Shown: positions 4,311-61,598 of the stretch, one piece after another
Position numbering within the stretch: the first letter of the stretch is position 1
How the letters are laid out: each line of letters starts with the position of its first letter
Source of the DNA: Gnetum montanum
Taxonomy: Eukaryota > Plantae > Gnetophyta
Assembly: GCA_015680685.1 (NCBI GenBank)
Contig: MNCI01001087.1
Span: forward strand, 267,575 to 331,574
Length of the DNA stretch: 64,000 nucleotides
Reading direction: 5' to 3'
Notes under the pieces: model-generated
Told to the model about the DNA's origin: nothing
The model's input: the letters and a program-made list of their open reading frames with translations, nothing else
The model's database searches: none
Program-made: the position numbers and the translations under genes

Positions 4311-4379
4311 TTTTTGGGTATGGTTTCTATACTGTTAACATTCTCATCTCGGAATTCAGGGTTTATCGTTGCTTGATCG

Positions 4380-13808: not shown

Positions 13809-16800
13809 CTAGTTATTGAGTTGCCTCTTAATCTTTTGTAGCTTAACGTGAGGGGTAGGGCATGCACACATGATCTTATACTCACCATCCCCTTCACTAG
13901 TGATGTCAAAGGGTAACTCCGACCAAGAGACATCAGTGGGAATGGCTCCTATGTTTGTGTTGTCTGGTGTTTCCTTAGTTTCAGTAGGGTTGTAAGTTAA
14001 CATTGGGTTCATGTTTTGAGGTATGCTCATAGTTCCTTGCTTAGGCTCAACCAACTCAATTTTTTACTCTTGATCTACCTCAGGGTATGAGGAAGTGAGC
14101 AATACTATTGTATCCCCACATATGATGATTTCACCGTCCTCATAAGGTAGGTGGATCTCCTGATGGATTGGTGAGGATACGGCTCTAAGTTGAGCTAGCC
14201 AGCGATGTCCTAGAATCAAGTTAAACCCTAGCATTTCATCAACTACTATGAATTCAGCTGATGTGGGGAATTGGTCCCCAGCTATGAAATCTAAGGTAAC
14301 CATACCTTTCACTCTAACATGGGAACCACTGAAGGATTTTAGGAAAGAAGTTGTCGTGGGCTGTATTTGTTCAGTGAGTCCCAATTTTTCGATGATGGGA
14401 AAAGGTATTACGTTTGTTGCCCCACCATCATCGACATGGACCCTACATATCTTGAAATGATTGACTTGTATCATTATGAATATACGGGCTGTGATGACTT
14501 CTCCTATTTTCTCATATAGTTTAATTTCCTTAGCATAAAACTCTAAGGAGATAGTCTTTGATTCCTAAGGTTGCAGGGACAATACTACATAAATAGACGG
14601 CTCATCTGCAAGAAGGTCCTCACTAACAAGGATCGAAGTCAGCATCTGTATGAGAGCTTCCCGATGTATAATTGAAGTCATTACTAGATCATACAGGCTT
14701 AAAGAAGTATTCTTTTGTTTCAAGGCTTGTGTGACTTGAGTTAATGCACTCGCTAAATCTTTACCATTTGGGCCACCCTTATCTGTAGAGACTTGGTCTA
14801 GTTGAGCCAGCATTCGTATCTCCTGTGGAGGGATTTTTGTGTTGGTAATTGAGGATGCTGGGTTTGGGACACAACCCGTGACATTATCCTCATTTTGATG
14901 ACTCGTACTAGGCTCATTAATGGGCGTACCCATAGGAACAATGTTTAGCGGTGTGGGCTTTGCCGGTCTTAATTCATGCTTATGGTTTTCTCTTTCCAGG
15001 CACTCTCTTGTTAGCCTATCGGCAAAATGTTCTCGCAAAGGTCATGGGGGAATGGAGGTGGGTTGTGTGTCAAGGTGTTTTGGCACCCGGATAACAAAGG
15101 GAATGGGTCAGTTTTTAGATGATGTGGTTGTTGCTACAATAGAAGGAGGTACACGGATGATGAATGGTTTTTGTGGTATAGGGAATGTACGTATGATGAA
15201 AGGGGTTTGAGGAGATGTTAGGGTAGGTGTGTTTTCTGAAGGCTTGCGAATCACAAAAGGTTTTTGCAGGACATCCTATCTATTCTCCACATGGATAGTA
15301 TTAATCACATATGATGCATCATTAGTATTGAGAGGATCCTTGTAGAATCCCATGGATTGGTTTTGGGGTCTTAATAGATTTCCCTCATCGAATACTACTC
15401 CACCCCTATCAATCATGTGTTGTATATCTTGTTTCAAGATGAAACAGTAATCAATCCCATGACCACACCATTGGTGATATTCCCGAAACCTATCCAACCT
15501 AAAGCCTCTTGGAACAGGGGGCTCATTAGCTGTTGCTAGAGCTAGGTTCTTGGCCAACTCACAAAATCGACCATGTTTTTGAGAGGCCACAGGAGACATT
15601 TTTTTATGTTGGATTAGCCCGGCCTTTAGAAGTTGATCAGCAATTGTGAAGGCTTCATAGGCAAGGGTGTATATTGAGCAGGGTCTTTTCTTTCGAATGT
15701 ACGGGCATGACCCATGTTGGTGTTTTTATTTGATAAAGGTTCAGGTGTAGGCATAGGTGTGTTTCTTTCGTGGCCGTTTGGGGTGGCAGTTTGTTTTCCC
15801 TTTTGTCTGAGATGGTTAGGTCAGGCTGTCTCTGCTATCGCCGCTACCGTTGTTTTGGATTTATCCTTCCTTGTATGTTGGCTCCTAAAGGTCGAGTAAG
15901 CTGGCTCATTACTTGTTTGTGCCACTTCCTCTATGTCCTTAATTTTCACAAATGCTTGGCTCAAGGTATGGGCTTTCAAATAATAGAGTCTTAACTTAAT
16001 AAAGTCATTCATAGCTACCTTATAGATGGTAAGCAGATATGTTTTAGGGATAGGCTTGTGAAGTTCATTTAGGGTTACACTCCACCTTTGGATAAATTTC
16101 TATGCTGGCTCTAACGGTGCTTGTTTAATATGGATCAAGTTATCCAATGTGGCTTCAGGTTTTAAATTATACTTGAAACAGGTGACAAATTGGTGCAACA
16201 AGTCCTCTAGAGAAGATATGAAGCTACGGGGTAGAGCTCAATACCAGTCTAAGGCCTTTCTGGCTAAGGAGATAACAAACACTTGCAGAATTACATGAGG
16301 CCATGCCTGAAGCAATAGGCATTCTATTCGAAATGTCACTAGGTGAGCATTTGGGTCTCCCTCTTCATTGTACTTGGTTAGCTGGGGTAACGAGACTCCC
16401 TTTGGCAAGGTTAATGGTGGAATTGAAGGGTCGATTAGATCATCTTAATAAAAGTCCAATACCTTGACTTCCTTCATGTTTACAGTTTTGAGACGCTTTA
16501 ATTCTTCTGCTAACGAATGCATCATTTTCTTCATGTCTGCCCACTCTTGAGCGGTAGGCAGATCGGTGGGTTGAGTTGGTGGCAACTCATAATGATTCGA
16601 TTGTTGCATTGTTTGTGGAAAGAGAGATTGTTGGACTATCATTTGTTGCGGTGGGATGACATTTGGGGCTAAGAAAATGGGGTGTGGTATGCTATAGTGA
16701 GTAGACAGGGTTTTCTAAACAACTGGTGGTACCCACTACCCAGCCATAGGTTGTGAAGTCACTCCCTGAACATCTTGGGTTGAAGTAATCAATGGTGACA

Positions 16801-17212
16801 TGTGGATTTGCACTTGAGGTATGTAATGGGAGGACGTGAAAGCTAGTATGACCGATGGCATCCTAATCACTTGAGGCCGAAAGGTCGATCTTGCGTTAGT
16901 TTGGGGAGGGAGTTTTTGGGACTGTACTTGTGGAGGTATGATGGAAGTGGATGCATCAGAGTGAATATTGAGCATGGAGAAGATGGGAATGGAAGCAAGT
17001 ACCTCTTGTCAGGAAACTGGTGATCCAATGTTTGCATATGAAGGGGGAAGCACAGTTTCTTCCAGAAAAGGGTGGAATAATGAGCTTGTATGGGCATGGA
17101 GGCTAATGGTATGGTATGAATCCCCATGTTTAGATTGGGCTGCGAAGTCATCTTCCTCATCTCCATTCTGAGGCTCTATTGGAGGTAGTTGTAAGGCTTG
17201 ACTTCTTGCCAT
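13809..17212 (-). pseudogene. gag-protease ORF of element A
   Basis: Retrotransposon gag region (KYNEEGDPNAHLV-like, YHQWCGHGIDYCFILKQDIQHMID). Aspartic protease RVHVDDGGATNVI...FNLILGHRWL. Ends KIKRQLNN*. Confidence 0.9.
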
Positions 17213-17910
17213 GAGAAGCTAGGATATGCATTTATGATGGTGTTCAAACAGCGGGATTATATCAAATGCTGAAGGGATAATTTCATAGTCTCACTTCACT
17301 TCCCTCTCTACACAATCGATAGGTAAGCTGGCTTGGATCTTAACACAGATGAAGTTATACTATTCAGGTGTAAGAGTTGCATAAGTAGGGTTTTTTCCCT
17401 GTAGCCTAAGTGACTAGCGCATAGGGCCTTGGGGGTTTATCTGTTCAATAACAGTTATGGGTTCTGTGGCAGTCACAAGGTTTGAGGTTTCAGCTCCAAA
17501 GTTAGAGGTCGGAAATGTCACAGGGTTAACTTGGGAGGATTCAATAGTGAGTGTAAGTAAACTGGGCTGGACGACTTGAGTGTGAGACTCTACATCGTGA
17601 GTAGCTACAGCGTGAGTAAGCTGACAGATAGCGTGAGCAAATACAGCATGAGTACTACAGCATGAGCAAGCTAACAAATAATGTGAGTGACTGATAGCGT
17701 GAATACTATAGCATGAGTAGCTATAGCATGAACAAGCTGATAGACAACATGAGTGACTGACAACGTGAATAGCTAAGAACAAGGTGGGTAAGTCAAGCCG
17801 TGCGTGTGCATGCTAGCTTGACAAGCTGAGCTTTAGTTTTAGCACTTCGTCTGTGTACTGTTTGGATAGGTAGTATGATCTACGTTTTGGTAGACGATAA
17901 ACAACTCTGG

Positions 17911-17926: not shown

Positions 17927-17932
17927 ATTTAC

Positions 17933-19617
17933 TGTACTAACCTAAATCGTCAGTGTACGGCTGGAAGGGAAAACAAACACCGAAAGATCATTGGGCACAC
18001 ACAGCTAACCTTGCCTTCGCCCAAGGGCAAGCTAGAAAAGAAAATGAAGATAGAGTGCCTTAGATGATCTACATGCAAATCAACCAAGGACTTCCCCGAG
18101 CGTGAACTATGACCTGTGCTGGGGTTATCGTAACTGATGTTTGAAACGTAAACAGTGTGCACGAAATGTAAACAAAAACGTATGCAGAATTGGTATTGTA
18201 AACATAATGTAAATTGAACGTAAAACATAGCAAACAATATAATGGCTGGCAAAATTAACTGTATTGTATTGCTTAGAAATGATGTGTACCAATCAAAGTG
18301 TATTTGCACATGTGGATGGAAAGTCAAGCACCAAGCCCTAGGACAATGTGATGTGTTTCAGGAGTGCTTGGATGCTAGGAGTCAGGTGTGTCCGAGCACC
18401 CAAGGATTGCTGGTCTGAGTTTCCTAAGCCATCTGCCTTTAAAATTGCCTACCTTGTTTATGTGAATTTATAGGGTATTTATAGGGTTTGGCTAGGCTCA
18501 GGTGTAGAATTCATGGGTTGAATCAACGGTTGAGAGATGAGAGAAAAATGGATCTAGTGACACATGTTCGATAGACAGCTTTGTATGAGTTGGATGTGTG
18601 TGGGCAAGCTATGTTTTCGACCAAGGGCCTTGTATCTTACAACGTGTGATAACTTACTCAAGCTAGCTTATGCTCATGGAAACACATACAATTCAGAGTG
18701 TAAGAGCCTGACAAACTCACAAATGATGAAAATTTACAGTGAAATTAACTCTGGCTTGCTTGAAACTTATAGATCTTTGAATTGACCGTTGTAGGATATT
18801 AATTTGAGTGGTTCTGTGGCTGTTTCAGGTGTCTTCGCCTGACAAGAACTTCCAACGTGAGTTGCTTTTTCCTTAGCATGTCCTCACCATGCGCATGCTA
18901 TACTCACGCTACACTCATGCTACAGCGTGACCTCAACTTGACCTCAGCGTGAGTGAGCTAGAATTATGGATTTTTCACCAAATTTTGATTTTTGAAGCTT
19001 GATTCTTGAAGTGTGAGGATTTCCTAACTGTGATTGACCTTGAAAATGATCTTAAAATCAAAAATTAAGTTTGATGTGCCCTATTTTTTACCACCTTTGG
19101 TAGCTCACGCTGGACTCACACTACTAGCATGAGCTGTAGCGTGACCACAGCGTGAGCTGCGAAAACCTATAATTTTGAACCTAATAGAGGCTGGAACTTG
19201 GATCTTATCGATGATGAACCCTAAAGATGATTTGCACATTAGAGATCAAATCTTTTTTAACTTAGTTTTGGGCTTTGAAAGTTGCTCACGCTGCACTCAC
19301 ACTGCCAGTGTGAGTGAGTGACAGCGTGAGTGAGAAAATCTGCACCTTTTAACACCAAAATTTCAATCTCTGAATGCTGAAGCTTGGACTTGACATCAGT
19401 GGCCCTTGAGGATGGCCTTTGAAATCGAACCATTTCGACTCAGTTTCAACGCTCCTAAAGTTGCTCACACTGCACTCATGCTGCCAATGTGACCTTAGTG
19501 TGCCCAGGACAAGCCAGCGTGAGTGTCATGCCTTAGTCAAATTTTGCTTCCAAAAAGCCAAAAGGGATCTGGGTTGTTCTTATTTCAAAGTGTTAGGCCA
19601 AAATTAGTGGTGTTTCA
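17933..19617 (-). repeat. 5' LTR of element A (~1,685 bp)
   Basis: TG...CA termini, adjacent to the PBS, right part repeated at 1-786. Flank gtacc (19618-19622) is the expected TSD. Confidence 0.92.
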
Positions 19618-25685: not shown

Positions 25686-27715
25686 GTCCCATATGTCCTC
25701 CACACACAATCTCATGAACTTGCTCAAGGACTATTCTAGCTTCGGTTCTAACAAAGCATACTAACAACATGCCATCATAGGATCATTGACATAATATGTT
25801 ATCATCTACAATGACATACTATTTTGATCATTTACATATAGTATCCTTTTGAATAATAGTTATGGCTTGTGAAGATTCTCCATGCATAAGGTAGAACTTG
25901 ATATCATCGTACCACTCCTTTATAGGAGTAATATAAACTATGGCCACAAAGTTATCCTTAGCATTCTATGTGATGGGTATAGCACAGTCCATGGTTAAGG
26001 TGGAAAACTTACTAAACACATTTGGTGTTACACTGAGGGCTAGCATCGTGATGGCATTAACTATAGCATTTTTGTTTCAAGATATATGTTGGATATCAAC
26101 ATTTATAAATTATTGTAATAATTGCTTCCCTAAGTCACAATAAGACTGTAAATGTTTAATTTTGCATCCGTAAAGCTTGGTTGCTTAGTTGACCATGGGT
26201 TGTGAATTGTCCTTGATCATTAAATGCTTAATTCCTAGGTCACAAGATACCTTCATCCCCTTAATCAAATCCTCATACTCTATTATGTAGTTGGTGCATG
26301 GGAACTCAAAACAATAACCAAAGGGTTGGATTTGACTAGACACAAAGGTTATAATGGTAGTAGCACCACCATCATGGGTAATTGATGCTTTGTCAAAGTG
26401 CATGACTACCTCATAATCCTAAAGTATTTGGATAATAGTGTTGACATGTTCATTAAGAAACTTAGGGTCTATGTCTGCATGGTCATCAATAAGCAAAATA
26501 GTAAGTTGTTTGGTTATAGCTTGACCTTTCATTGAGAACTGAGAAATGTAATGAAGGTCAAACTCTACTATTATGGCTTTCCCTTGGGCTCTATGACTAC
26601 TCTCATAAATATTAGTCATTATGACTCTAAGTATGTTGTCTTTGTAAATGACATTGACTTGGCTCCAAAAGAGGTAACATCTCCATTTCTTCAATGAAAA
26701 GGCTGGTGCTAGATAGCACTTCTCGACTTTAATGTATTAGGTTTCATGGGCAAATAGGACATGGCTAACGTAGAATACTAGCATTTATATGGTCCATCAT
26801 TACATTTTTGACAAAGGAAAGAGATAACTAATGTGTCAAAGATAGCAAGGTAGATGTAAAAAGGCTTACCCTCTTATGGAGCATAGACTGTTGATAGTTG
26901 TACCAACTCTTGCTTAAGGTTTTCAAGGACTTCTTGGCATTGAGTTGTCCACCCATAGTAAGCTCCTTTCTTAAGCAAGTGTTGCATGGATTGTAGCTTA
27001 TCCATGAACATAGTAATAAACCTACAGATAAATTATAATCTACCTTGCAATCCCCAAAGCTTCTGAAGGTTAGTTAGCATTGTCAAGTTCGAGATGACCT
27101 TAACTTTATTAGGATTAACACATATCCCTACTTCCAATACTGCAAAGCCAAGCACCTTACTAGTTTTGACATCAAAGACATACTTCTTAGGATTAAGTAT
27201 AAGTTTGAACTTAAGGCATTGTTTAAGCACAAGGTCTAGGTCAATAGCATGGTCACCCATCACTTTAGAGTTAATAACTATATTGCCTACATAATCATTG
27301 AGCAAACCAAACATGTAATCACTAAATATATACATCATGGCTCTTTGGTAGGTTACTCTACATTCTTTAGGCCAAATGGCATCATGGTATAGCAAAAGGT
27401 ACCCTAAGGGGTCATGAAAGTCATGCTAAGTTAGTGTTCTAGGTTGATCCTCATCTGGTTGTATTTCAAAAACCCATCCATAAAGGACAATAAGGCATGT
27501 CTAACCGTAGTATCAATAAATTCATAAATAATAGGCAAAGAAATGTTATCCTTGATGGTTGCCTTATTTACATCTTGGAAATCAATGCAAATTTAAATAC
27601 TCCCATTCTTCTTGGAGACTATCACTATGTTGGATACCCACTTCACGTAGTCATCAACTCTAATGAAACTAGATTGGTAGAGGTTGGTAATTTCATCACG
27701 AACTTTCAAGGCTAA
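25686..27715 (-). pseudogene. RT, RH, aRH and start of INT zinc finger (Tat type), attributed to element C
   Basis: WVSNIVIVSKKNGS, LSFMDGF, MPFG, LNPKKYVF, HFDKAS...TNYIIEY...DNSQ and EQVHEIVCGGHMG, which is cut by the LTR of B. Confidence 0.88.
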
Positions 27716-27809
27716 GTCTTGCTAGTTCATTCCAACGATATTAAATAATTTTTTACTAAGTTCTAAATAGTGCATGTAATAAACAAATAATCCTCGAAAA
27801 CAGTTCGAA

Positions 27810-34944: not shown

Positions 34945-37100
34945 ATTTTCATGCCTATTTGGATCTTGGATTTTCCAACACCCTAGGACTATGCTAGGCA
35001 TGTAGTTCCCAGTGTAGTCAAGGTTTCTAGATAGGAAAAAGTTGAAAAGGAATGAATCTTGGCTTATTTCCCAAGGTTCCAAAGTCTAGGCATTCTTTAG
35101 CAGGGTTCTGGATCTTTCTAGGAGTTGATTTGATAGTTCTAGAGCTATTTTGGCCATCCTTAGATGGACTACACTAAGCTTGGGTAGGGACTATGCTAGC
35201 CTGGCATAGTCCTAATCTCCTATCAGTGTAGTGAGTTTGGAAAGATTTGAACAATTAATTTTTACTACCAAAATTGACTCTAATGGGCCCTAGGACACCT
35301 AAAACTAAACTTTGGATTACTTTCATCAATTTTTAGATAAGTCTGGGGGGACTACCCTAGGCTTGGGTAGGTAGGCTTGGCTTCCATCAATGTAGTCAAG
35401 ATTGTAGGTTTGAAAATTATGGAAAAAATATAGGTTTTATGTCAAACAAGTTTAAATGGGGTTTTAACGTATCTAGAGATTTATTTACATTATTTTTTGA
35501 TGGCTTTTGTTAATTATGAGTGGACTATGTTGGGCTCAAGTAGGGACTACATTGTTCCAATGTAGTCCCAACTTTCGTCTAGTGTAGTTGGTGTCTAGCC
35601 ATGGCAAATGGAAAAAAGTGGCAAGGAGTGTCTTAGCTATCAATTCTAAGGTGCTCTAGGGTTCTCAGGACACAAGTTAAACTAGAAGATGGATTTTCCA
35701 AGGCATTCTAAGTGGACTACGCTGGCAACCATCAGTGCCTCCAAGCCACTGTAGTTACTCTTGGAAAATTGCATATGATTTGAAAAATGATGAATTCTTG
35801 CTTCCATGTTTGATCTATCAAGGTTCTAAGGTCTCTAGAGGTGGATTTGGATTTATGGTTTTTGAGTGGGCTACACTATGCATCTACTAGGACTACATTG
35901 TTCCAGCATAGTCCTCTTAGTCCTCAATGTAGTCCCATGCATGAACTTAGATTTGTGGGTTTTCTTTGGGTTTTCAATCAATTGACCCGTAATTTGAGAT
36001 TACTAGGAGTTCTAGATGGGTGTGAAGGCTCTGAGATGCAGTATTGGAGGTGTATGGTTGTTTGCGTTGTTTATTTGACCCTTAAACCCTAGGGCTATGC
36101 TAGCCCAGCATAGTCCTTGGGTTTCCCTAGTGTAGTCATGGGGAAGAGGAAAAAAGTGACACCATTCACTACATTTGATCATATCTCAAGCTTGATGGAA
36201 GCTAATACTTGGGTTTGGATGGATGGTATGTTGATTCAGACTCAATTGGAGGCTAGATGGAATGCATGGCTAGCTTGGGGCTTGAAGGAAGCAAGATGTC
36301 TTACTGGACTATGCTAGGCACCCACTGGGACTAAGCTAGCCCAACATAGTCCTTGGGTTTCCCAATGTAGTGATGGGATATGTTGGATTTTTGACACAAT
36401 GGAATGAATTTTACCAACTTTTAGTGTTGTTGAAAGCTTTGGCTAGACTTTTGTGAAGTATTATAGTCGATTTAGAGGTAACTAGAGGCTAGATGGACTA
36501 GAAGAAGTCCATTCCATCTTGGACTATTCTAGGCATCAACTAGAACTACGCTAGCCCAATATAGTCCTTAACTTTCCTTAGTGTAGTCATCAATATTTTG
36601 TCAAAATCTAATACATTTAACCACATTCTAAGGTTGTAGGACACTTAAACTAAGTTTTATAGAGGTAATATATAAGTGCTAGTTATCTCAAGGTTTCCAT
36701 GAATGCTAGTATCAGCATAGTCTAGTATGGAACTCCAAAAAGCTCAACATAGTCATGTCAAAATCTAGCATTTTAGTAGCATCTAGTAAGGCCCACTCAA
36801 AATTAGCAAGTTTTTTATGCCAAAATCTCCACATAACTCAATGTAGTCCTTAGTTTCTAATTTCATCTCCAAACAAAGTGAAGTTGCAAAAGGAAACCAA
36901 CGTTTCAATTTAGATGCCTAGGTTTAAGTGGGTTTTACTTGTAAACACTTGGGGAAGATCATTATTATTTTATACTTCTTGCTACTATGCACAAGTAAAG
37001 AGTTTTGCTATTATCACCACTATCTACTACCTAGCTTCAATGTAGTTCTAGCTACTTGTGGTACTAGTGTCAGCATAGTCACTAGTACTACCAAGAATCA
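34945..37100. repeat. Dispersed array of GACTACGCT(G/A)/CAGCGTAGTC motif variants upstream of the cargo gene of C
   Basis: More than 20 copies on both strands, mostly CpG-decayed (gactatgct, agcatagtc, agtgtagtc). The same motif occurs in the LTR of C at ~47400-47800. Confidence 0.85.
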
Positions 37101-37142
37101 AAGATCTTCTATGTTTTTGGACACCCATCTTTCATACCTTTG

Positions 37143-40100
37143 TGAAGAAGAAGACTCCCACTAGGAACCTTACATTAGAAGATGTAGACATCACTTCCCA
37201 GAGCTTAGCATGTCTACCTCATCCAAGGATTGGAGAAGGCTCCATCACCATCTTTCCAAGGTACACATTCTTACCAATTTTTCCAGTTTATTTCATGTAT
37301 TCTATTTTTTGGGTTTTCTTCCATTTCTTAGATCTAGGCTTATGTATTCATTATTTTGAGCTTCCATAAAAATCTCACTATAGATCTAGGCCATGTTTAT
37401 TCATTTTTTATGCTACTTGGGCTTTCGATTTTGGTTTTGTTGATGTTTAAATGATTTTCCCACGATTTTCATGGATTTTTGCTTTTCCCACCCAAAAAAG
37501 CAACACCACTTTTGGATTCTTCTTTGAGAAAATGGCTAGTTTTTTTAATTCTCTAAGTTTATGGAGTTATTGTCTATTACTTTTTGGTCAATGAAATTTT
37601 AAACCACTTAATTTTTCCTAACGAATAATTTTCTATGACTATTGTCATCAAGCTATGTCAAGTGGGTTTTCTACCCTTAGGCTATTTTTTTTCTAAGATA
37701 TGTAATTTTTATACACTGAAATATTACAAAATTTAGGTTTTATGGTTATGTATTTTTAGGTTACAATTCAAGGATTCCAAGAAAATTTTGAATCACCAAA
37801 TCTGGATAAATATTTTGGCTACTATGGTAATTTTCATGACCACATGCAAAAAGGGTTTCTAACATGATGACCACAGTTAGGTAATTTTGATAATTCTTTT
37901 TGTGAAACTATGGTTAATAATTTTTACAATTTCTTGTTATGGGGTTGTAGTTCATGGTTTACAATTTCAACGACTATTGAATTTTTGAATTTTGTTAAGC
38001 GGTTGATTTTTTATGGTCATTTCTGTTTGATCACATGAAATTGTAGTTATAAGGCTATTACACATTTACCCCTATGAATATGGACAACATTGAGTTTGTA
38101 AAAAACAATTCTTCAATGTTCCATGGTCTTGTAGATCGTCTATGATATTGGAAAGGGGTTGGAAGTGGTCTAGATCAAATTAAAAAATTTTCCATATTTT
38201 TTGTAAGTGTTTCCTATGGCCATTTTGGTGTAAAGTGTGAGTTTGTTGAATCTTGGTTATAAACTTAGGCTATATTTTGTATCTTTTCTAAGTGGGAATT
38301 TAATGTGGAAATTGGAAATTTTGTCCTTTACTATTACTTTTACATTTTTATTCCTAAACTGCCAATTCCATGTTTTTGGTTGTAATTAGTCATTGTTGCA
38401 ATTTTAGTATTAAACTATCATTTGATGTGAAATATTTCAATTTTTTAAGTGTTGTTTACTATGTTTGATGGTTATAAGGCTAAAACAGCTGGTGTAGTAG
38501 TTGTAATGTCATCTTGCTTATTAGTTTTAATGTATTTATTCAATCCTATCTTTTAATTTTAGTTTTTTGATTTGCATGGTCATAACAATTATGTGTTGGA
38601 TGTTACAGGACTTTCTTGAAACCAATTTTGGTGGTTATAGAGATGGTGGGGCTTTTATGCTACATCCATCTCCCTAGGAATAATGCTCTAATTTTAGATA
38701 TGGAGTGGGACTGACGTGGAATATGGTTTAGGCCAAGAGCTAAAGACTTCCTTTCCTATCTTCCTCAGAACTTTAGTGTGATGGTTTGGTCATACCTAAT
38801 GTCTAAAGCTACAATAATAATCATAGAGACCATCTTACCTAGGTTATCTAGCTTAATTGTCAAGTTCATGATGGATGAACTTGATGCTCATGTGAAGGGA
38901 AAGATCAATGAGAGCACTACCATTGTGAATTCTTGCAAATTGTTAAAAATGTAAAAGATGCCTAAATTTAGCTAGTATAACATGGACAACACTTTGATTG
39001 TTGGCTACCATGCTCATACATTTTTCCAAAATCCTCCAAGCACCATTTATCACATAGATGGGTGAGTAAGGTTGCCTTTTTGTTTATGGTTATTTTCTTT
39101 GTTATGTACTTAAGTTGTGATAATTTTTTGTTGTTTTACTTACCTATAGATTTAGGATGGATGAGCAAGGCTTAATCAAAGGTAACAACCTCCTACTCCT
39201 AGCTCACATAGCTTTAGAGGTGTTTACCAAAAGCCCAAACTTGAGGCTTGCGATATTGGAACAACTAGAGAGTAACTATGAAGATAGCACGGAATGCCAT
39301 CCTAAGGCTTATACAAGATGTCTAGGGAATGGAACAATAGATAGTTGGTGGGGCAACCCATCCCTTGATGACTTAGAAGTAAATCCATCCCCTAGAGCTC
39401 CTAAGATGCCTACATCAAATAAGTGAAGTGGGTATTTTTATTTTGTTGATTTGGGTTATTCGTATGCTACCATTTTTTTTAGTTATTTTGGTTTTGGTTA
39501 TTTAAATAGTTGTATTAGTTTTCTTTTAACTTAGTTATATTTGTTGTAACTTGCTTTACATGATGTACTTATGCTAAGGCTAATAGGCTATCCTTTGTTA
39601 TGTTGTAGAGGCCACTCTATCAACTAAAGTTACAATTATCACTTCAAGACATGTTGAGGAGACCTTGATCCTATTGGCTGTCAAACTAAGCACTCTATGC
39701 TATACATGCAAGGGTTATTCATGCAAGCCTATTTGACCTCTTCATGGCCCCAAGCCCTATCATTCCTACTGTAGAGGTGATGAACATCATTGACTCCTTT
39801 AGCCAAGAAGTCAGCAGGTTTGTCACCCATGTTCATAGTGTGACTGTTGTTTTAGACATTAATGCATCCACCTTTAATGAATTCGTTGGTATTTCAAATG
39901 ATGGCATACCAATTATTACCAAATTAGGGAGGGAGGTGGACCATTGAGAGGAGGTAGAAGAGTGGCTAAATGCTCATCGTGGTAACAAGGGATAGTCTCT
40001 AAAACAAATCAAGTCACCATTGATTAGAGAAACATATCCCTTGTTCCAATCCTGATCATTTCCTAAGTTGTTATCATAGGAAAAGATCTTAGGCATGGAG

Positions 40101-42090
40101 TAGGCTTGGGCCATGAAGTAGGTAGTCACCGAAGATGCCTAATTCGACTAGGCTGCACACTTGATTTCTGGACTATAATGGAAGATCCAAAAGCTTCGCA
40201 ACAACCTCACCATGAAGTGTCATGTGCACTTTGAACCTTTTTTAGATTATTTATAGAGGTTTTTAGAGTTCCTAGTGGTGAGGAAGGGTGGACGATGGAT
40301 TATCCAAGATCCATCTCAACTCATCAAACCATGGATGAAACTCCTTACTTTGATCACTTAAGCCCAAGACCCACCAAAAGCTATAGGTGAATCACTATCT
40401 ATCACTACTAAGGGGATTAGTGATAGGCATTTTGTATCCCCTAATAGCACAGGGTTGGAACCTCTCATAATACCAACTAGTGTCAAGAGGTCTTAAAAGT
40501 TACATACAAAGGCTGAGGGGACAACTAGGGCCAAGCTTAAGAGGCCCTTGGTGGATGAGACAACACTATTGATCAAGGAGCCTTTGCCAAAGAAATTTAT
40601 CTTCAAGCTTAAAGGGATGCAACATGATGTTAGAGCTATGTTCTTGTTAATTTTTTTTTTTTTTTGTTAATTTACTTTTTCACAAGTCATGGTGTTTAGT
40701 TGGTATAGTTGATTGATGGTCTTGCAAAATGTGTTATGTTACTTTATGTTTCATGGTTGATATTTTTGTAGGTAAGCAAAAAGAACAAGAGGCCCTTGCA
40801 ACAACAATAGGGGCTTTAGAGAAGCAAAGGCATTAAGAGAAGAAGGAGGAGCAGCAATGTCAAGAAGATGAAATACTAAGGAATTATGAGGATGAAGTGT
40901 TGTAGCAAGAGGAAGATGAAGTTTTACCCCTTATTCCCATGGGTCACTTTGATGCCTTCCTAGAAGATCCACAAATGGATGAACCCCCTATCATCATATT
41001 AGAGGACCTCCTAGGTATTTATGATTTTCCTTGGTCTTAAATGTTGTACATGGAATCTGTCATTTCTTCACACTTATCTTTGGCTATAACTATTTATTGC
41101 TTTCTACACTTATTGTAGCCCAAGAACCGTAGGTAGAAGCTTCCACATCTACCTTATGCATGCAACTATGGATGGATACCCTCAATAAACTTAAATTCAT
41201 GTGGGGTGTAGCTAAGGATATGATTAGCCAATTGTAGCAAATAGTTCCTAAGATCATTAAGAGTCCTAACCCATTTTGCCTTTATTGTTTTCTATGTTTG
41301 GTTTTGATATGGTTTTCTATGGTTATGAAGTTTTTTTGTTATTAACTAGTTTCACTTGGATTTTTTTTCTATGTTGGCTACAATGCCTAAACTAAGATGG
41401 AATCCTGATAACCCAGTTCAAGTTGCTGCCTTACCCCCTTTATCTCCTAAGATGGAGAATGTCCCAAAAAATCTATATGAGGGTGCCACTAGGTGTGCAC
41501 TCGCATGCACTAAATCGTTGTGGGAATGTAGACAATCTAATGATTTCTTATGGAAACAAGTTGTAGAATTGAGGAAGGACAACCAAAAGCTAATAGAGGA
41601 GGTGTAAGAGCTCATAGATCGTAAGGACTTCATAGAAGCCTAAGTGCACAACAGAGACTCCTTGCTTAACAAGGAGATAACTTGGGCTCATTATTGGAAT
41701 GCGATCCAAAGCAAGGTTTCCCTTGTTATAGAGGTGGTAGAATAGAATCTCCAAATTGATCTCATAAATCATAAGGTTGGTAAGTGGAAAGATTACTATG
41801 CTTGGGTCCTTGAGTGGGGTCATACACAAAATGATGACAAAAGGATGTACAAAGCTAAATGGGAAGCCTACCTCAAATGGCTACAGGAGGAGTCTATAGA
41901 GTGGTGGAGGCTAGAACTATTCATGATGGACATCAACATGGAGAAATTCTATAAACTATTTGTGAAGAGCATGGTTGTAGCCAACTCCCCTACTCGTTAG
42001 ATTACTACTGCCTCAGGGGAGGCAACTATTGCCACATTCTCAAATAAGCTCCCCACATGGAGTGACATTGATAAGAAAGTTAAAATGTCC
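37143..42090 (+). pseudogene. Antisense cargo gene of element C (homologue of 6777-13186), heavily decayed, last exon not found
   Basis: Exons ..-37260, 38609-39061, 39150-39422, ~39600-40640, 40772-41014, 41119-~41260, ~41380-42090. Same splice phases as A at introns 1, 2, 3 and 5. Homologous peptides, e.g. IEMVGLL/VELVGLL, QNFSVMVWSY/QNFSVVIWSY, HTFFQNPP/HTLFQNPL, RFLEFLVV/RFVEFLVV, ITTASGEA/ITTASKEA. Confidence 0.8.
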
Positions 42091-42479
42091 ATAACATCAT
42101 AACCAATTTTAGGCCATGGCAAGCCATGTGATACTTGTCATTTTAAGGCTGTGGCATGTTGTGTGGAAGGCTCTACAATACGTAAAAGAAAACATAATTT
42201 TTGGTTATTTTTATGGATTTTTTAAATTTTTAATAGTTTTTTATAAAGTAGTTGTTGTTTTTGTTGTGAAAAAAGGAAAAACAAAGAAAGAAAAAGGCTT
42301 TTGATGAATAATCATGCAAACAAAAGTAAATCATTAAGCTACATGTAGAAAATGGTTAAAAATAAAGTAATTAAAAAGGCATAAACTAGCAACAAAAAGA
42401 TCTAGGCTAACTAGTTATGAATACACATAGTTATAAGGTTATGATCACATAGGGTGTAAGAAGGATCAAGAGCATATAT

Positions 42480-45400
42480 CACTTATGCAAGTGTTTCTTG
42501 ATCTTCGAGAGATTGGGAAATGTGTATGGTCTATTTTGCACTAGTTTATATTATCCATCTCCTTCACTAACAACATTAAAGGGGAGCTCTTTCCATAGCT
42601 TATCAATCGATTCATCATTGTTTACATTCGCCTCTTTTACTCTATCACTCCTCTCAGTTTTGTGGCAAATGATAGGAGTTTATTAATGAAGCTCCACTTT
42701 TAACCCTTGTTCTATATTAATATTGTTAATAGCTAAAGGAATCGCACTATCACTGTGGATAATGATTTCAACTTCCTCATAAGGCAAGTGGATTTCTTGA
42801 TGAACAGGTGAAAAAATAGCCCACAATTGAGCTAGCCAAGGTCTTCCTAGGATGAGGTTGAATCCTAGTGTTTCTTCTACCACCAAGAAATCTACAATTG
42901 TAGTGAATTGCTCCCCTGCCACAAAATCTAGAGAAATTAAGCCTTTGACAACAACCCATAGTCTATTAAAGGATTTAAGGACTGAAGTTGACATATGTTA
43001 CATCTGTGTTTTCAAGCCCAAGCATTCAACAATGGTATGAGTTATGACATTGGTTGTCATCCCATCATGTACATGTACTTTATGTACTTTTTATTCCCCA
43101 ACTCGTATGGTTATAAAGAAAGGCTCCTTGGTTACGTTGCCATTTTGGAGATTTGTTTTGATTTCACTGTTACAAAATACCAATGATGTTAACTTTGATT
43201 CCTAGGGCAAAGAGGGTACCATGACTGCATGGATAGACTCTTCATTAGTGAGGACATCCTCGCTAATACGAATGGAGGTCAACATCTTAACTAGTGCCTC
43301 ACAGGTGGGTAGAAAAAGTCATGACCAAGTTGTACAAGCTTAGAGTTATGTTCTTTTGCTTGAGCGATTACTTAACCTATTCCATTGCATTAAGGAAGTC
43401 TTTATTATTGGTTTTTAATTTGTTATTTCTAACTTCCTCCATATGTCCCAAAATGAAAATTTCTTAGTTAGGTTGTTGTTGTCACCTAGCCTCTTTCTTT
43501 TCTTCTTGGGGTTTTCGTTCCTCCCGTGGTTTACTTATTAAAGCATCTTTGGTTGTGGAAGTCATTTGAATAGATGAGATGGAAGTGGGCTTCAGTGGAC
43601 CCACCTCCTTCCCTAACTTAGACTACTTATTAGTGTTGTTCTTGGCTTTTTGTGCAATATTATTTTGTTGTTTGGTTGGTGGTTTCTTATTAACCCTAGT
43701 TGGTTGCAAGGAAGAAGACATTACATTGGCCACCATAGGGTGTTGTTGCTTTGTTGCTGGGAAAGCTTGTGTTGTAGAGGGCTGAGGCACCTAATGACAA
43801 AAGGATCCTTAGGGGATATTTGTGATGGTACCCTTACAACAAAAGGGGATCTTAAGCTAGTATAAGTTGAAGAGTCCCTTTCATTACAATGGGGTACTCG
43901 AATCATGAATGGTTCCCTCACCCATGTCTGATTGTCATCAACATTGACTACCGATATAATGTATGAACTGTTGTTGGTGTTTAATGGGTCCTTATATACA
44001 TGCATCGATTGGTTCTAAGGCCTAACCAAGTTTGAAGTATCTAGTACTAGTTCACCCATATCAATCATCTTTTGCAAGTCATCTCTAAGCGCAAGGCAAA
44101 AATCGATATCATGACCTGACAACTCATGATAATGGTAGAAGCTATTGAGCTTACAATACTTGGACATTGTAGGGTCATCCTTAGTTGCTTGAGCATGGTC
44201 TTTTACTATTCCACATAACCTATCATGCCTCTTATCAAAAATCTTGGTCATTTGCTTGTATTGGATCTTAATGCTCTTCAAAAAATGGTCTAGAAGCTCT
44301 AACAACTTAAGGGGTAACTTGGTATATTTCAACTAGTCTTTCTACATGAAGTTAGGCCTAGATGTAGTCAATGCAATGGCCCCATAGGTAGATGGTTGAT
44401 TGTTATTGTTGGTAGTAGGAGACTTGGGTTGGTTAGTCTTCGACCCTTAGTTAGTTGGTTTGCTCTCCTTAATCATGGTTGCTACTGTTACATTATTTTG
44501 CCTATCCTTCTCTTTGTCTTTATTCGAATGTTGATTTTTATATGCCACCTAGGCAAGATCATGGCTAGCCTTTGCAACATCCTCTATGTTCTTAGTCTAG
44601 TAAAGGCTTAACTAAGAGACCATGAATTAAGATAATATAATTTTAACTTTATGAAGTCATTAACCACTTCCTTGAAGATAGCTAACAAATGTGTTTCAAC
44701 TATCAGTTTTGGTATCTCGTTGAGCGAAGCATTCCATCCTTGGATAAACTTTTGCACTAGCTCAAGGGGTCCTTGCTTAACATTCATCAGTTGGTCAAGC
44801 ACGGTATCAAGTTTCAAGTTATACTTAAAATGGTTAATAAATTGCGAAATTAGTCTTCCAAAGAGGATATGTATCCTCTTAGCAAGGCATAGTACCAATC
44901 AATACTTTTCCTACCAAAGACAGAGGGAAAATTCACATAATTCTATGTGACCATGCTTGTATCAATAAGCACTTGAAGTGAAAGATAATCAGATGAGCAT
45001 TCGAATCACCTTCGACATTGTACTTAGTGAATTATGGCACAGGGACACCATGAGGTAGAGTTAGCTGTGGGACTATAGGACTAATGGGATCATCTTGGTA
45101 AAAGTCCATTATCTTCACAATCTCATACGTTGAGGCTTTAACTTTCCTTAACTCTTAGGTCAAGCCCTAAATCATGTGGAAAGCTTAATCCAGTCCTTGG
45201 GATGCCCCTATTGGTTGTGGGCTTTGAATGAAGGATTAACGCATGAGCTACAATGCCTATGGTCTTGCTATTGGTTGGGGTACTAAGGGTAGAGGCTAAG
45301 TTACTATAGTGGTAGGTGTGATAAATAAACAAAATGATGTATGTGCTAGTATTTGGGGCACAAATGGGACAAAGGGAATGTGTGATCCCCAAGTCACTTG

Positions 45401-45780
45401 GGGTTGCACTATGGACCTTTTCTATGTGACAAAGGAGGTAGTTGTAGTAACAATTAATGATAACAGTTGTAAAAAAAATAGGCTGTGTATCAAATAGCAT
45501 GGAAAAATGGAAGGTTGTGGATTCCAGCACCAAGTGCATTTGGCGCTTGGCTATGATGAAAGTTGGCCCAAATATGGTTGGGTACGATAGGGACAAAGGC
45601 AATGGCACATGTCCAAATGAAGAGGCAAAGGGGATAGATATAGGCATTGTGGTCTTAGAGATTCCTTCTTGAAAGAGCCCTCCTAAAAGGTTCTCAAGTT
45701 CAGACTCTACCCCAAACTTGTCTTCTTTCTCTAGCTACCCATCAGAAGTAGCTTTTAGCTCCTCTTCATCCATCTCAATT
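42480..45780 (-). pseudogene. gag-protease ORF of element C
   Basis: KYNVEGDSNAHLI, FKYNLKLDTVLDQLMNVKQGP, YHELSGHDIDFCLALRDDLQKMID and FNLILGRPWLAQL. Ends KIKKHLHK*. Confidence 0.88.
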
Positions 45781-46569
45781 AGTTGAGATAAAATGCATGC
45801 ATAAGTGTTAGTCAGAGGTGTTTGATTTTATAGAGAGGGAATATACTCCTTTCCGTTATGATTTATGAGCTCATATTCTCTTTTGACTTCTACTTCCATT
45901 CGTGAAATTAGCATGCCAGCCAAATCTTGCTGCAAATGTAGTTATAGTGATCCTCATTTATCACTAAGGATCTTGGACTTTTCCCCCTAAGTTGCAAGGA
46001 TTACCTTCATTTGATAATGGCAGGGTCTTTAGGATCATAGACCTTCATGACCTATTGGATAGACATCTCTTCAATGAAGTTAAAAGGCAATTTGGATGAT
46101 TATTGGAAAGACATGTTGAAAATAGAGTTTTAGAATTTTTTTACTATTTTTGGTAAAAACATTGTAAGTAAAATGATCTACAAACATAATAGACCAAAAA
46201 TAGAAAGGCAGTGGAAAATAGTTACTAAGCAGTAAAAATGGAAAAAAGGAAAAGTGGTATACCTACTGAATGGAAACAAGTGTCATAGTAGAAATGATGT
46301 TGGATAGAATGATGTTAGACAAAATGCCATTTAATGGAAAAGCTTTGAACAAAATGGGTGTTGTAATAGACAAGAAATTTGCAGCAAAACCCAACTCTAT
46401 TACCACTACTACACCAAGGCTTGTGGAAGAAGGTTTGATAGCCAACGTTGTTATGATGAAATGATGGAAGGGAAAAAATGTAAAAGGCCTAGCATTGGAA
46501 AAAAAAATGGCTAAAATGGGTTTATGGCCAGGAATTTAGATGAAGGCCCCCCTTCTAGTGATAGAAAAC

Positions 46570-48089
46570 TATTGGTGTTGGAAATCTCAGTTATTGGAAT
46601 GGGAAAACCAAAAGATCCAAATGTTGAATTAGTTTTAACCCTGAATCCCAAGGGCCTCTGAAAAACATAATTCAGAGTGCCCTGGATGGTCTAATCAATC
46701 ATCCAAGGACTTATAGAACATAAATAAAAATGGTAAATGAAAGTGTAGATGTTGACATAGACAAAATCAAAAATGAAAATTAAAATATAAATATAAACAA
46801 AAATGTAATTATAGTTACAAATCCAAAAGTGAAAACAAGTGCAAAAATGAAAATGTGAACTAAAACTTTCACAACATAAATAATAACTTCATAAAGAATA
46901 AAGAATAAGGTTCATAAAGTACATATTTCTTGCCATATTCACTAGATGTTGTTGGCATGAGCTTGAAGTCAATTGGAGAAGGTAGGCTATGTTCTACTAC
47001 AACTCCATGATCTAGTTTCTTCCTAGCTCCAATTTCTAGCAACTTTTCATCAGTTTCCACCAGGATCTACAACTTAGTGATGTAAATGGGTTTTCACTTT
47101 CAGTGCAATCGCAGCTATGTGGAAGTCTCTATACCTAGCATAGTGCTAGTTTTGACTACAAGAGTAGAAACAAGGTTGCAAATGAGTTGTATGGATTGTG
47201 AAAATGCCAAAATTGTTGTTACAAGTGTAAAGTTTGGAACTGCTACCAAGGGTTGCAAAAAATGCCAAAGTGCTCAGAATGCAAAAGTGTTGGAACCTAA
47301 AAATAGTGTTGACATTGGGTATTTATAGGGTTGATGTGGCTATTTATGGGTCTATGCACCACTGCCACGATTGCTAAAAGATTAGTGTCAACATGCAAGT
47401 CACAATAGTCATACTTTCAGCGTAGTTACCATTTATAGTAAGCCTAGTGTGGACTACAGCCACAAAACCATCCATTTACTATAAATAGAAAATAGAATTT
47501 TGTGACTACGCTGGCATGATCCTTACTATGCTGGCATTGGTGAACTATGCTAAGGTTGTTGAAAAGTGGCAAAAGCGGTGAAAATTATGCAAAAATTTGG
47601 AATCTACAGAAATGGTGGAATCGATTAGAAAGTGTCGTACCTAGTGGATAATGTTGTCTACACTACCTGTTGTTGACTTGGGATGACTATGCTACCTATT
47701 GTTGCAAAATTGGAAATTTCAGTAATCCCAACATTGCACTTTGGTTGGGTCTTAGTAGTGATTACACTAGCTATTATGGCTACTGTAGCTACTGTGTCTA
47801 CTAAAAATGGCTCCAACATAGTTGGGGCTATACCCCTACAAAAACCCATGAAAATGCTAATTTTAGCCATTCCCAAGGAATTTTCAACCTTCCCAAGCCC
47901 AGATATAGACATGGGATACCCTTTTCTACTTAGGAAGTAAGGAAATAACAACTTTTGAAACATTGTTTGGCTCCAAAAAGCTGAAGTATGAAAGATTATA
48001 GCTCCTTATCTACATATTCAACATTTACAATGAATCCTTGCCCCAAGTTGGGAAATAAAGGTTGCAACATGAAATTTTATGGTGTTTCA
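46570..48089 (-). repeat. 5' LTR of element C (~1,520 bp)
   Basis: Right end aattttatggtgtttca matches the LTR terminus of A. Left end abuts a decayed Asn PBS (cccccttctagtgata). Confidence 0.8.
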
Positions 48090-59043: not shown

Positions 59044-60211
59044 TGTAGTGATGGAAAATTATAGCACTAGAAAACTGAAAGATTCTATTTTAGCACTAGA
59101 AAACTGAAAGATTGAATTTTGCTTTTGCGCTCAATGAGATGTGTTACATTCAATGAACTTGATTTCTACTTTTTTGGTAAATGAGATATGCTACATTTAG
59201 TAAACTTAAGCATGAGGCATGTTGGAGAACATGTCAAAAGATCATGGTGCATGAATGTTAAACATAGGTTTTTAGTGTTAACAAGGTATGAAAGGCTATA
59301 ATTTGGCTACAGGGAGTGGCTATGTACAAGTGGTGATGGAAGTGATGTGAGGTCAGCATTGTTGGCAAGATCAAACAAGCTAACCACATCTCGTGCATTA
59401 AGGTTACGCGATAGCTCACTGCTATGATGAGTCACATCTTTGTAATGACTTCAGGCTTCATCCTACAAACACAACTCCAAGAGAACAACAAAACAAGCCA
59501 AAGAGCACATGTGATTACAAGAATTTGTATAAGCCTACATGAGTCAGCAAGCATACATAGACGATAATTGTTTATAATCCACATATATAGGAGAGGGTTG
59601 TATTTTGTTTAATGGATTTGTACAAAGTTCATAGACTTTAAGATGCCAAAAAAAAAGTGTTATGAATGCCATTCGTACTCATTAAAACTTGTGAGCAAAG
59701 GCAAATGATACTAAAAGTAAACACATTAATTGTTAGAGGTAATTAAGGTCATGTGAAGGCTTTAATGTCACCTTGCAAGGGTTTGGTGATGTCTTGAGCA
59801 ATCTAGATTCCAATCAGGAACTTGGTTTCATGTGCTTTCTCCTCACCATCATGGTTTGAAATAAGGAGTTCAACCAAGGAATCCTATGTGATGTTTCTGA
59901 CTTCAAGGTCAAGGGCAATTAAGCCATTCTAAGGCATTGAGGCTACATGGTCAAAGGCTTATAGGTTGTCGATTTAGGCATCCATGGGGTAACTTGTTTG
60001 AACAACATCACCATAAGGATCAACTTGAGCTCAAAGGCTAGGCGAATCACTTCCTCATCTCAATAACTTAATCTTGCATATCAACACAAGCACATCAAGT
60101 AGCATCTACATGATAAAATCATTAAATAGTGCTAGAATAATGTGAAATATCATAATACAAGGTCAAAACAAAGTAACACAAGGCTAAACAAGGCAAGGTA
60201 GGGTCACTACA
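59044..60211. repeat. Probable solo/recombinant LTR of another family
   Basis: 8-bp inverted termini TGTAGTGA...TCACTACA, and it truncates the RT of E abruptly. Flanking 5-mers differ (agctt/aggca). Confidence 0.45.
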
Positions 60212-61325: not shown

Positions 61326-61598
61326 ATGGCTAATTTTACGGCAAGAACGAATTTGGTTACAGCGTATTTAGGCAAATTTTATTTATTTATTTATTTGTTT
61401 TTGTTTTTGTTCTGCTGTGACTGTGGCTCCAGTGGCGGTAGCATTTTGGCAGCACAATCCCAAGAGAATCCAAAAGACGTAGCGTGCGTGCAGGGCCTGC
61501 AAGATGTCATTGAAGATCTGAACAAGAAGCTCGTGAAATGGAGCTCGGCCAAGATCCAGACCCCAGCAATGATACCTTCTGGGAGCTTCTTGTTTTAG
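61326..61598 (+). pseudogene. 5' fragment of an LRR receptor-like protein/kinase (signal peptide + LRRNT_2 cap, RLP44/BIR-like), frameshifted
   Basis: A hydrophobic stretch is followed by ENPKDVACVQGLQDVIEDLNKKLVKWSSAKIQTP. Adding one T gives TP-C-NDTF, the cap cysteine. No LRR repeats follow. Local CpGs are retained. Confidence 0.45.

What the first reader, a model, noticed from the sequence alone, without database searches (positions are those of the whole stretch)
34945..37100. Element-specific short CG motif arrays (A: CAGCGTGAGT; C: CAGCGTAGTC) suggest a co-evolving protein/target-motif system
Seen: A has dozens of CAGCGTGAG(T)/ACTCACGCTG copies confined to its LTRs (1-700, 18850-19530), its 5' leader (17570-17830) and the cargo gene 5' region/intron 1 (6650-7930). 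C has a related but distinct motif, differing by about one base after the AGCGT core, in its LTR (~47400-47800) and upstream of its cargo gene. Motifs occur on both strands, often as inverted pairs, and were not noticed in coding regions. Known: VANDAL transposons encode VANC proteins that bind family-specific short motifs accumulated in non-coding TE regions to remove silencing. Inference: the cargo protein, or a recruited host factor, recognises its own element's motif, giving a VANC-like system in an LTR retrotransposon.
Basis: partly seen in the sequence, partly recalled or inferred. Interest (0 to 1): 0.85.

Follow-up and report, generated by a model that had tools for sequence, protein, structure and literature searches.

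The report
Retrotransposon word arrays beside antisense gene
Related plant jumping genes each carry dense arrays of their own short DNA word in front of their main promoter and in front of a spliced, backwards-facing extra gene, whose protein likely binds that word to switch on its own family (binding untested).

Summary
The arrays are real, but mostly as copies decayed by cytosine deamination. Exact counts are 15 (A word) and 2 (C word). Allowing deamination gives 46 copies in A's four non-coding regions and 27+7 in C's; shuffle means are below 0.5. Each element almost excludes the other's word.

A and C are Tat-type Ty3/gypsy elements. Each holds a multi-exon antisense gene (8 exons in A) between protease and RT, where Ogre has its intron. 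Relatives of A's gene are transcribed and spliced in poly(A) RNA.

The words lie upstream of a shared LTR TATA box and at the cargo gene's 5' end. Many form back-to-back dyads at 11/22-bp spacing, in 150-235-bp units. A third relative (E) has a third word at the matching place but no recognisable cargo.

The cargo protein has no database relative and could not be folded, so a VANC/PMD link is unproven. A's and C's arrays show no protection from methylation decay.

Best reading (0.45): the cargo protein recognises its own family's word and activates it. Main rival (0.3): host transcription-factor enhancers, like Sirevirus RM boxes. Co-evolution is suggested, not shown.

The parts
34945..37100 (.). 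Element C internal array upstream of the cargo gene: about nine 154-235 bp units, each with a back-to-back cluster of the C word (decayed CAGCGTAGTC), 22-bp same-strand and 11-bp opposite-strand spacing
37100..42100 (+). Element C cargo gene, antisense, multi-exon, broken by at least 20 stops in the five exon frames counted; exon 1 placed by eye only
42600..46050 (-). Element C gag and protease (41-53% aa to A)
47023..47031 (-). Element C primer-binding site, one mismatch to A's
47035..48088 (-). Element C 5' LTR; TATA context at 47317-47332 identical over 16 bp to A's; 7-9 C words, most upstream of it (47418-47820)
25686..27724 (-). Element C RT-RH-aRH, cut on both sides by nested insertions (D at 27725-34944; LTR of B at 24900-25685)
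1..786 (-). Element A 3' LTR (U3 part), four ~180-200 bp units with dyad clusters of the A word at 11-bp spacing
2600..6106 (-). Element A pol: RT, RNase H, aRH, integrase
   Evidence: Pfam; start
6640..7930 (+). A words just upstream of cargo exon 1 and dispersed through intron 1, all on one strand, in unrelated flanks
   Evidence: no RNA reads over these arrays
6777..13187 (+). Element A cargo gene, 8 exons (about 6777-6850, 8262-8710, 8792-9068, 10378-11420, 11537-11813, 11906-12103, 12178-12970, 13106-13187), about 1,100 codons; broken by 6 stops in the frames counted, frame changes near 8400 and 12510 and a mutated acceptor of intron 2; 8559-9349 is duplicated at 9774-10564 across the N gap
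   Evidence: RNA
14000..17250 (-). Element A gag and protease
17570..17830 (+). A leader array: tandem units of 15/51/66 bp, word spacing 14-16 and 21 bp, one strand
17930..19617 (-). Element A 5' LTR (PBS just inside, TATA context 18473-18488, word clusters 18853-19520); about 88% identical to the 3' LTR over aligned columns
59755..63574 (-). Element E, third member of the lineage: protease 63574-63027, pol N-terminus 60018-59755, 3-kb spacer without a detectable cargo homologue
60762..60910 (.). E word cluster CATCGTRT (6 strict copies, two 18-bp palindromes), followed by a 1-kb CpG island

Best explanation
These Tat-type retrotransposons carry subfamily-specific arrays of a short CG-containing word at the LTR promoter and at the 5' end of a spliced antisense gene, and the protein of that gene likely binds its own subfamily's word and would thereby activate, or shield from silencing, both its own promoter and the LTR. 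Shown: the arrays, their exclusivity, their position upstream of a conserved LTR TATA box and at the cargo gene's 5' end, the dyad geometry, coding constraint on the cargo gene, and spliced poly(A) RNA from relatives of A's gene. Inferred: that the words are protein-binding sites (dyads, helical spacing, the same word in unrelated flanks); that the binder is the cargo protein as a dimer or multimer (basic NLS-like cluster, coiled-coil-like segment, a resemblance by eye to PMD/Transposase_32 recalled from memory and not confirmed); that this is a positive-feedback loop like foamy-virus Tas at internal promoter and U3; and that word and protein drift apart together between subfamilies as VANC and its targets do. 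Also inferred: the antisense gene keeps its introns because they face the other way in the genomic RNA, and it sits in the protease-RT spacer that Ogre splices out.
For: Exclusive words in A and C, and a third word in E at the matching place. The A word recurs in three contexts (LTR units, leader tandem, dispersed intron copies) whose 12-bp flanks are only 24-27% alike between contexts; C array vs C LTR 25-27%. So the word, not a larger repeat, is what recurs. All 17 close opposite-strand neighbour pairs in A LTRs, C array and E are back to back. Same-strand neighbours fall on helical multiples in 11/11 and 7/9 (A LTRs), 10/10 (C array) and 3/4 (E), vs 0.39 expected. Units are 44-50% alike in spacers and 72-84% in word columns (partly circular). 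Cargo A vs C over 632 codons: nucleotide identity 0.49/0.60/0.35 at codon positions 1/2/3; in the longest exon wrong frames score 83 and 43 vs 340; aa identity 28-43% vs 51-66% for gag, PR and RT. The exon 1-2 joint is seen in 3 of 3 poly(A) runs (6, 4 and 4 reads; 2 samples, 1 study) and not in the DNA contigs. Literature: Tat eORFs encode PMD plus coiled coil (PMC4408406); PMD resembles VANC's DUF1985 and host PMD proteins work with DNA motifs (10.1101/2024.09.27.615353; PMC13547354).
Against: No DNA-binding domain is identified. Pfam gave none, PDB none, protein databases none (one search gave one repetitive protein matching only profile positions 249-289), and AlphaFold gave pLDDT 30 and 35. 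Profile comparison with element F's weakly Transposase_32-like ORF was negative. There is no methylation shield in A or C: CpG o/e 0.10 in the C array vs 0.15-0.18 in C's body, 0.44-0.57 in A arrays vs 0.47-0.48 in A coding; in the LTR pair 6 of 14 word CpGs vs 4 of 9 other CpGs show deamination. E has an array but no detectable cargo. The unrelated B-family LTR has its own CG array and no copy of F's extra ORF in the part seen. Helical spacing is absent in A's leader (3/9), A's intron (2/6) and C's LTR (1/3), and copies made by tandem duplication are not independent. Only two cargo-word pairs exist here, and word and gene are physically linked. The three words share CA[GT]CGT[GA], whose CGT[GA] is the NAC-family core (recalled, no call).
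Confidence: 0.45

Rival explanations
1. The arrays are enhancers for host transcription factors, used at both the LTR and the cargo promoter; subfamilies differ because tandem-unit turnover fixes variants around a shared core, and the cargo protein does something else.
For: Shared core CA[GT]CGT[GA] in all three words. E keeps a cluster without cargo. Sirevirus RM boxes show the same layout (palindromic, element-specific around a shared core, in LTRs and upstream of the extra ORF) and matched mainly stress-related sites in PLACE (PMC2829016 sections 9 and 19). B-family LTRs have a different CG array.
Against: Flanks of the core and the dyad spacer (0-1, 2 and 3 bases in A, E and C, read) are fixed differently in each element across all its contexts, which one host factor would not require. 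Cross-occurrence is 1 in 63 and 1 in 38. The recalled NAC dimer site has the opposite orientation to these back-to-back dyads (memory, not tested).
Confidence: 0.3
2. The arrays are neutral products of slippage, template switching and homogenisation in non-coding parts of the element, with no binder.
For: Words lie in tandem units at two scales. DNA contigs show many skips and back-steps in the leader and intron arrays. Family-specific tandem arrays are common in Retand elements (PMC11963269).
Against: The same word recurs in separate regions up to 12 kb apart with unrelated flanks and no alignable repeat (blastn: at most 2 hits of 19-26 bp between contexts, none between C array and C LTR). 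Spacers have diverged to 44-50% while words persist. Other tandem arrays of A (2282-2553, 6172-6283, 7544-7655) lack the word.
Confidence: 0.1
3. The dyads act as RNA or chromatin structure: hairpins or siRNA sources as proposed for Sirevirus palindromes, or nucleosome-spacing signals (units of 150-235 bp).
For: Palindromic dyads. Unit length is near a nucleosome repeat in both A LTR and C array. PMC4728375 abstract.
Against: A's leader and intron copies are single-strand and cannot pair locally. A hairpin needs complementarity, not one fixed word. RNA reads do not cover the cargo-side arrays. No folding test was run.
Confidence: 0.1

Closest known systems
VANC proteins and their target motifs in Arabidopsis VANDAL (Mu-like) transposons (PMC5735166, abstract and Results read)
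   Same: Element-encoded, intron-containing accessory gene; 8-10-base word at high density in introns, intergenic and terminal non-coding DNA; different words in related families; turnover through tandem repeats.
   Different: Class I element, not a DNA transposon; DUF1985/DUF287 not detected; words contain CG and often form inverted dyads, whereas VANC21 motifs are arrayed in one orientation; binding and hypomethylation not shown.
Sirevirus repeated-motif (RM) boxes (PMC2829016, abstract and sections 9, 19 read; PMC4728375 abstract)
   Same: Element-specific, CG-rich palindromic words with a shared core and variable spacer, clustered in the LTR upstream of a conserved TATA box and upstream of the extra ORF; function untested.
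   Different: Ty1/copia with a sense env-like ORF at the 3' end and a CGG-CCG core; here Ty3/gypsy, an antisense multi-exon gene inside the gag-pol span, core CA[GT]CGT[GA], with unit periodicity. RM boxes vanish from the linker when the ORF is absent; E keeps a cluster.
Tat/Ogre/Retand elements with extra ORFs (PMD-CC, TRP28; Grande gene23) (PMC4408406 section 6; PMC6317226 passages; PMC11963269 parts 1 and 3; PMC7264820 parts 1-2)
   Same: RT-RH-aRH-INT order; GAG-PROT separated from RT by a non-coding spacer; antisense accessory gene with its own promoter; tandem arrays nearby; regulatory role already proposed.
   Different: In the parts read, eORFs lie 5' of gag or between pol and the 3' LTR, and Ogre's PROT-RT spacer averages 274 bp; here that spacer is about 8 kb and holds an 8-exon antisense gene. 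No PMD or TRP28 match by Pfam.
Foamy-virus Tas and its response elements (PMC3798896, passages)
   Same: Proposed logic: an element-encoded activator with sites at its own internal promoter and in LTR U3, giving positive feedback.
   Different: Analogy only; no sequence relation tested; Tas is sense-strand and lies after env.

Membership tests
VANC/VANDAL anti-silencing system | Encoded by a Mu-like DNA transposon | tested here: not met
   Host element has LTRs, PBS, gag, RT, RNase H and integrase.
VANC/VANDAL anti-silencing system | DUF1985/DUF287 domain or PMD-like fold | tested here: inconclusive
   No Pfam or PDB match; folds failed; queries are broken copies with one relative only.
VANC/VANDAL anti-silencing system | Family-specific short motif at high density in non-coding parts | tested here: met
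VANC/VANDAL anti-silencing system | Motifs arrayed in the same orientation | tested here: inconclusive
   True for A leader and intron (10/10, 15/15); LTRs, C array and E have inverted dyads.
VANC/VANDAL anti-silencing system | Motifs gained and lost through tandem repeats | tested here: met
   Indels of whole units between A's two LTRs, tandem units, joints in family contigs.
VANC/VANDAL anti-silencing system | Protein binds its cognate motif | not testable with these tools
   Needs EMSA, DAP-seq or ChIP.
VANC/VANDAL anti-silencing system | Loss of DNA methylation around the motifs | tested here: inconclusive
   Proxy only: no CpG retention at A or C arrays; a CpG island beside E's cluster (o/e 0.68 vs 0.15-0.22). 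No bisulfite data.
Tat clade of Ty3/gypsy (OTA) | RT-RH-INT order with an additional aRH domain | tested here: met
   aRH (RVT_3 E 1.4e-15 in A, 8.7e-8 in C) between RH and INT.
Ogre | GAG-PROT separated from RT-RH-INT by a spliced spacer | tested here: inconclusive
   Separation is present in A, C and E; splicing of the spacer was not observed, as no laid stretch spanned it.
Ogre / Retand | eORF 5' of gag (sense) or 3' of pol (antisense) with PMD or TRP28 | tested here: not met
   Cargo lies between PR and RT; no PMD or TRP28 hit.
Ogre / Retand / TatI-III | Placement in the RT/RH/INT phylogeny | not tested
Sirevirus RM boxes | Ty1/copia host and CGG-CCG palindromic core | tested here: not met
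   Gypsy domain order; core CA[GT]CGT[GA].
Sirevirus RM boxes | Clusters in the LTR upstream of a conserved TATA box and upstream of the extra ORF | tested here: met

The most novel reading that the evidence does not exclude
A plant LTR-retrotransposon lineage carries, inside its protease-RT intron, a multi-exon antisense gene for a divergent PMD/VANC-fold multimer that binds subfamily-private dyad arrays spaced at nucleosome length, autoactivates and locally unsilences its own subfamily, and has diversified together with its word at least three times (A, C, E): a VANC-like private anti-silencing code in a class I element.
Probability: 0.35. Interest if true: 0.87.

Novelty: new variant of a known kind. 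Interest (0 to 1): 0.64.

Why it matters
How LTR retrotransposons that fill large, heavily methylated plant genomes escape silencing, and what their extra ORFs do, are open questions. A 2026 paper states that whether retrotransposon extra ORFs act like VANC remains to be investigated (PMC12844716, passage). This lineage offers a direct swap test: expressed, spliced accessory genes with different, sharply defined candidate words. A positive result would extend sequence-specific anti-silencing or self-activation from DNA transposons to retrotransposons and suggest a function for Sirevirus RM boxes. Even if host factors bind the words, a multi-exon antisense gene between protease and RT was not found in my searches.

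Tried and rejected
No whole genome is held, so copy-wide motif and tree tests were impossible.

Cargo homologue searches were blank: word-based searches with the longest exon, the HMMER scan of 1.84 billion representatives (the one hit is a tandem-repeat protein, rejected), phages, metagenome and viral contigs, PDB by profile and Pfam. The ESM Atlas gave no result. AlphaFold models were unusable, so no fold search was run.

An RT-based metagenome scan gave 7 loci of 1.3-2.8 kb with no cargo match and 0-1 words each. Element F's extra ORF (weak Transposase_32, E 0.076) found no homologues and did not match the cargo.

Codon positions of 57 family variant sites listed by the read tool were 16/18/23, which is uninformative. 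The run search listed no RNA holder, which is no evidence; raw reads were laid instead. The strand of run X13 could not be fixed.

Rejected: 'dozens of exact copies'; a second cargo copy at 8559-10564 (100% identical 791-bp duplicate flanking the N gap, most likely an assembly artefact); an intron at about 8389-8425 (homology to C runs through it, so it is a frame change in copy A). Sasaki 2022 (EMBO J) and Tanaka 2026 (VANC21 structure) are not held. bioRxiv supplements on PMD clades (10.1101/2024.09.27.615353) were not seen and may bear on the domain question.

Full report
Setting. The window is a nest of decayed plant Ty3/gypsy elements; no whole genome is held. Self-alignment and Pfam define element A on the minus strand: 5' LTR about 17930-19617, PBS, gag and protease (17250-14000), an 8-kb spacer, RT-RH-aRH-INT (6106-2600) and the 3' LTR ending at 786. 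The aRH domain makes it Tat-type (PMC6317226 passages). Element C has the same layout: LTR about 47035-48088, PBS 47023-47031, gag/PR 46050-42600, spacer 42600-34945, RT-RH-aRH 27724-25686, interrupted by nested elements D and B. A and C share 51-66% amino-acid identity in gag, PR and RT and an identical 16-bp TATA context in the LTR.

Observation. Exact words are few: 15 CAGCGTGAG and 2 CAGCGTAGTC. Most copies carry C>T/G>A changes at the CHG and CG cytosines. Allowing these, 46 of 50 A-type hits lie in A's LTRs, leader and cargo 5' region, and 27 + 7 C-type hits lie in 34945-37100 and C's LTR, against shuffle means below 0.5 and maxima of 2-3 in 300 shuffles. Each word occurs once in the other element's arrays (62:1 and 37:1). 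Only 1 of 38 C copies has both bases of the central CG changed, as expected if CG was the original state.

Geometry. In A's LTRs and C's internal array the words form clusters of minus-strand copies followed by plus-strand copies. All 17 close opposite-strand neighbour pairs (A LTRs, C array, E) are back to back. Same-strand spacing is 11 bp in A's LTRs and 22 bp in C; the central spacing is 8-9 bp in A and mostly 11 bp in C. The clusters repeat every 166-203 bp in A and 154-235 bp in C, in units whose spacers are only 44-50% alike while word columns are 72-84% alike (columns were chosen by the word, so this is partly circular). A's leader and intron copies are single-strand and not helically spaced, nor are C's LTR copies. 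The flanks of the word are at random identity between contexts (24-27%), so the word itself recurs in unrelated surroundings.

The cargo gene. The spacer of both elements holds a plus-strand gene, antisense to gag-pol. In A it has 8 exons and about 1,100 codons; homologous exons follow in the same order in C. Over 632 aligned codons, identity by codon position is 0.49/0.60/0.35, a coding-constraint pattern, at only 28-43% amino-acid identity. Poly(A) reads from relatives, mostly under 90% alike, cover the exons, leave the upstream array and intron 1 empty, and show the exon 1-2 joint in 3 of 3 runs (6, 4 and 4 reads; two samples of one study), absent from the DNA contigs. Loose ends at 10382 and 11813 fit two more junctions by eye. 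Many exon-1 reads (165, 121, 96) continue in other sequence, so part of the signal may come from a chimeric locus. About 68,000 and 72,000 contig records from two DNA runs lie on 9774-19617, cargo exons included, so this is a large family. The position matches the protease-RT spacer that Ogre splices out, which averages 274 bp there (PMC6317226); splicing of this spacer was not observed here.

Protein identity. Unresolved. The architecture is an N-terminal domain, a central domain of about 260 residues, a basic cluster, an acidic segment and a coiled-coil-like segment. By eye the central domain resembles PMD/Transposase_32 at both ends; this is recalled and was not confirmed. Pfam, PDB, two word-based searches, a full HMMER scan and contig scans found no relative, and AlphaFold gave pLDDT 30 and 35. 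The link is plausible from the literature: Tat eORFs encode PMD plus coiled coil (PMC4408406 section 6), VANC is structurally like the PMD protein MAIN (PMC13547354 section 10), and host PMD proteins act with promoter motifs (10.1101/2024.09.27.615353 passages).

A third member. Element E has a protease 54% identical to A's and a pol N-terminus at 60018-59755 (34%, E 3e-6). About 700 bp from that start, where A's array begins, it has six strict copies of CATCGTRT (shuffle mean 0.16, max 2 in 1,000), forming two 18-bp palindromes. The three words share CA[GT]CGT[GA] and differ in the following bases and in the dyad spacer. E's 3-kb spacer has no cargo homologue by tblastn or tblastx and only two short DNA matches to the 3' end of C's cargo. 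E cuts both ways: a third private word, but an array without recognisable cargo. It may be a deleted, non-autonomous derivative, and that it is one contiguous element is inferred.

Methylation proxy. A's and C's arrays were not protected. CpG observed/expected is 0.10 in the C array vs 0.15-0.18 in C's body and about 0.45-0.57 across A; in A's LTR pair 6 of 14 word CpGs and 4 of 9 other CpGs show deamination. This speaks against lasting anti-silencing at these copies, but dead copies record long silent periods. E differs: 60741-61800 has 0.68 vs 0.15-0.22 elsewhere in E, either local protection or a captured gene piece.

Mechanism. I commit to cargo self-recognition at 0.45: a nuclear multimer binds the dyads at its own promoter and at U3, giving subfamily-private activation or unsilencing. 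Host-factor enhancers (0.3) are the main rival, because of the shared core, E, the unrelated B-family array, and the Sirevirus precedent. Neutral turnover (0.1) does not explain the same word in unrelated flanks. RNA or nucleosome structure (0.1) does not explain the single-strand arrays. Co-evolution is not shown, since two linked pairs cannot show it.

Comparison and novelty. It works like VANC/VANDAL in layout (PMC5735166 Results) but is not a member: the host is a retrotransposon and the domain is unconfirmed. The closest descriptive precedent is the Sirevirus RM box (PMC2829016 sections 9 and 19). Antisense accessory genes with proposed regulatory roles are known in Retand and Grande, 3' of pol. 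My searches listed no paper title or abstract on a multi-exon antisense gene between protease and RT, or on VANC-like function in an LTR element; the library lacks most subscription papers. Earlier AI notes report a similar word-plus-regulator layout in fungal elements; they are leads, not support. Verdict: new variant of a known kind, interest 0.64.

Noticed in passing
window 63665-63790 and 24905-24950: The LTR of the unrelated B family starts with its own CG-rich palindromic array (CGCGATATCG type; 12 and 6 deamination-aware hits).
   Followed up: partly
window 55000-53300 (minus): Element F has a decayed sense ORF after integrase with a weak Transposase_32 match (E 0.076) and a coiled-coil-like tail; no homologues found.
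   Followed up: partly
window 60741-61800: A CpG and CHG island inside the otherwise depleted element E, with gene-like pieces on both strands and no Pfam match of note.
   Followed up: partly
window 8559-9349 and 9774-10564: 100% identical 791-bp duplicate on both sides of the 424-N gap; most likely an assembly artefact.
   Followed up: yes
window 6778-6838: Most poly(A) reads on cargo exon 1 continue in sequence unlike this copy, suggesting a well-expressed chimeric or alternative transcript from another locus.
   Followed up: no
window 15367-17669: Run X13 shows strongly one-sided coverage over gag and leader (up to 46 vs about 1); the library's strand convention is unknown.
   Followed up: no
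window 2282-2553, 6172-6283, 7544-7655: Other tandem arrays in A (38, 28 and 24 bp units) that lack the word.
   Followed up: no
window 49500-51400: A decayed repetitive stretch next to the LTR at 51399-52120, seen as recurring peptides in six-frame translation (output); not reported as an array by the tandem finder.
   Followed up: no
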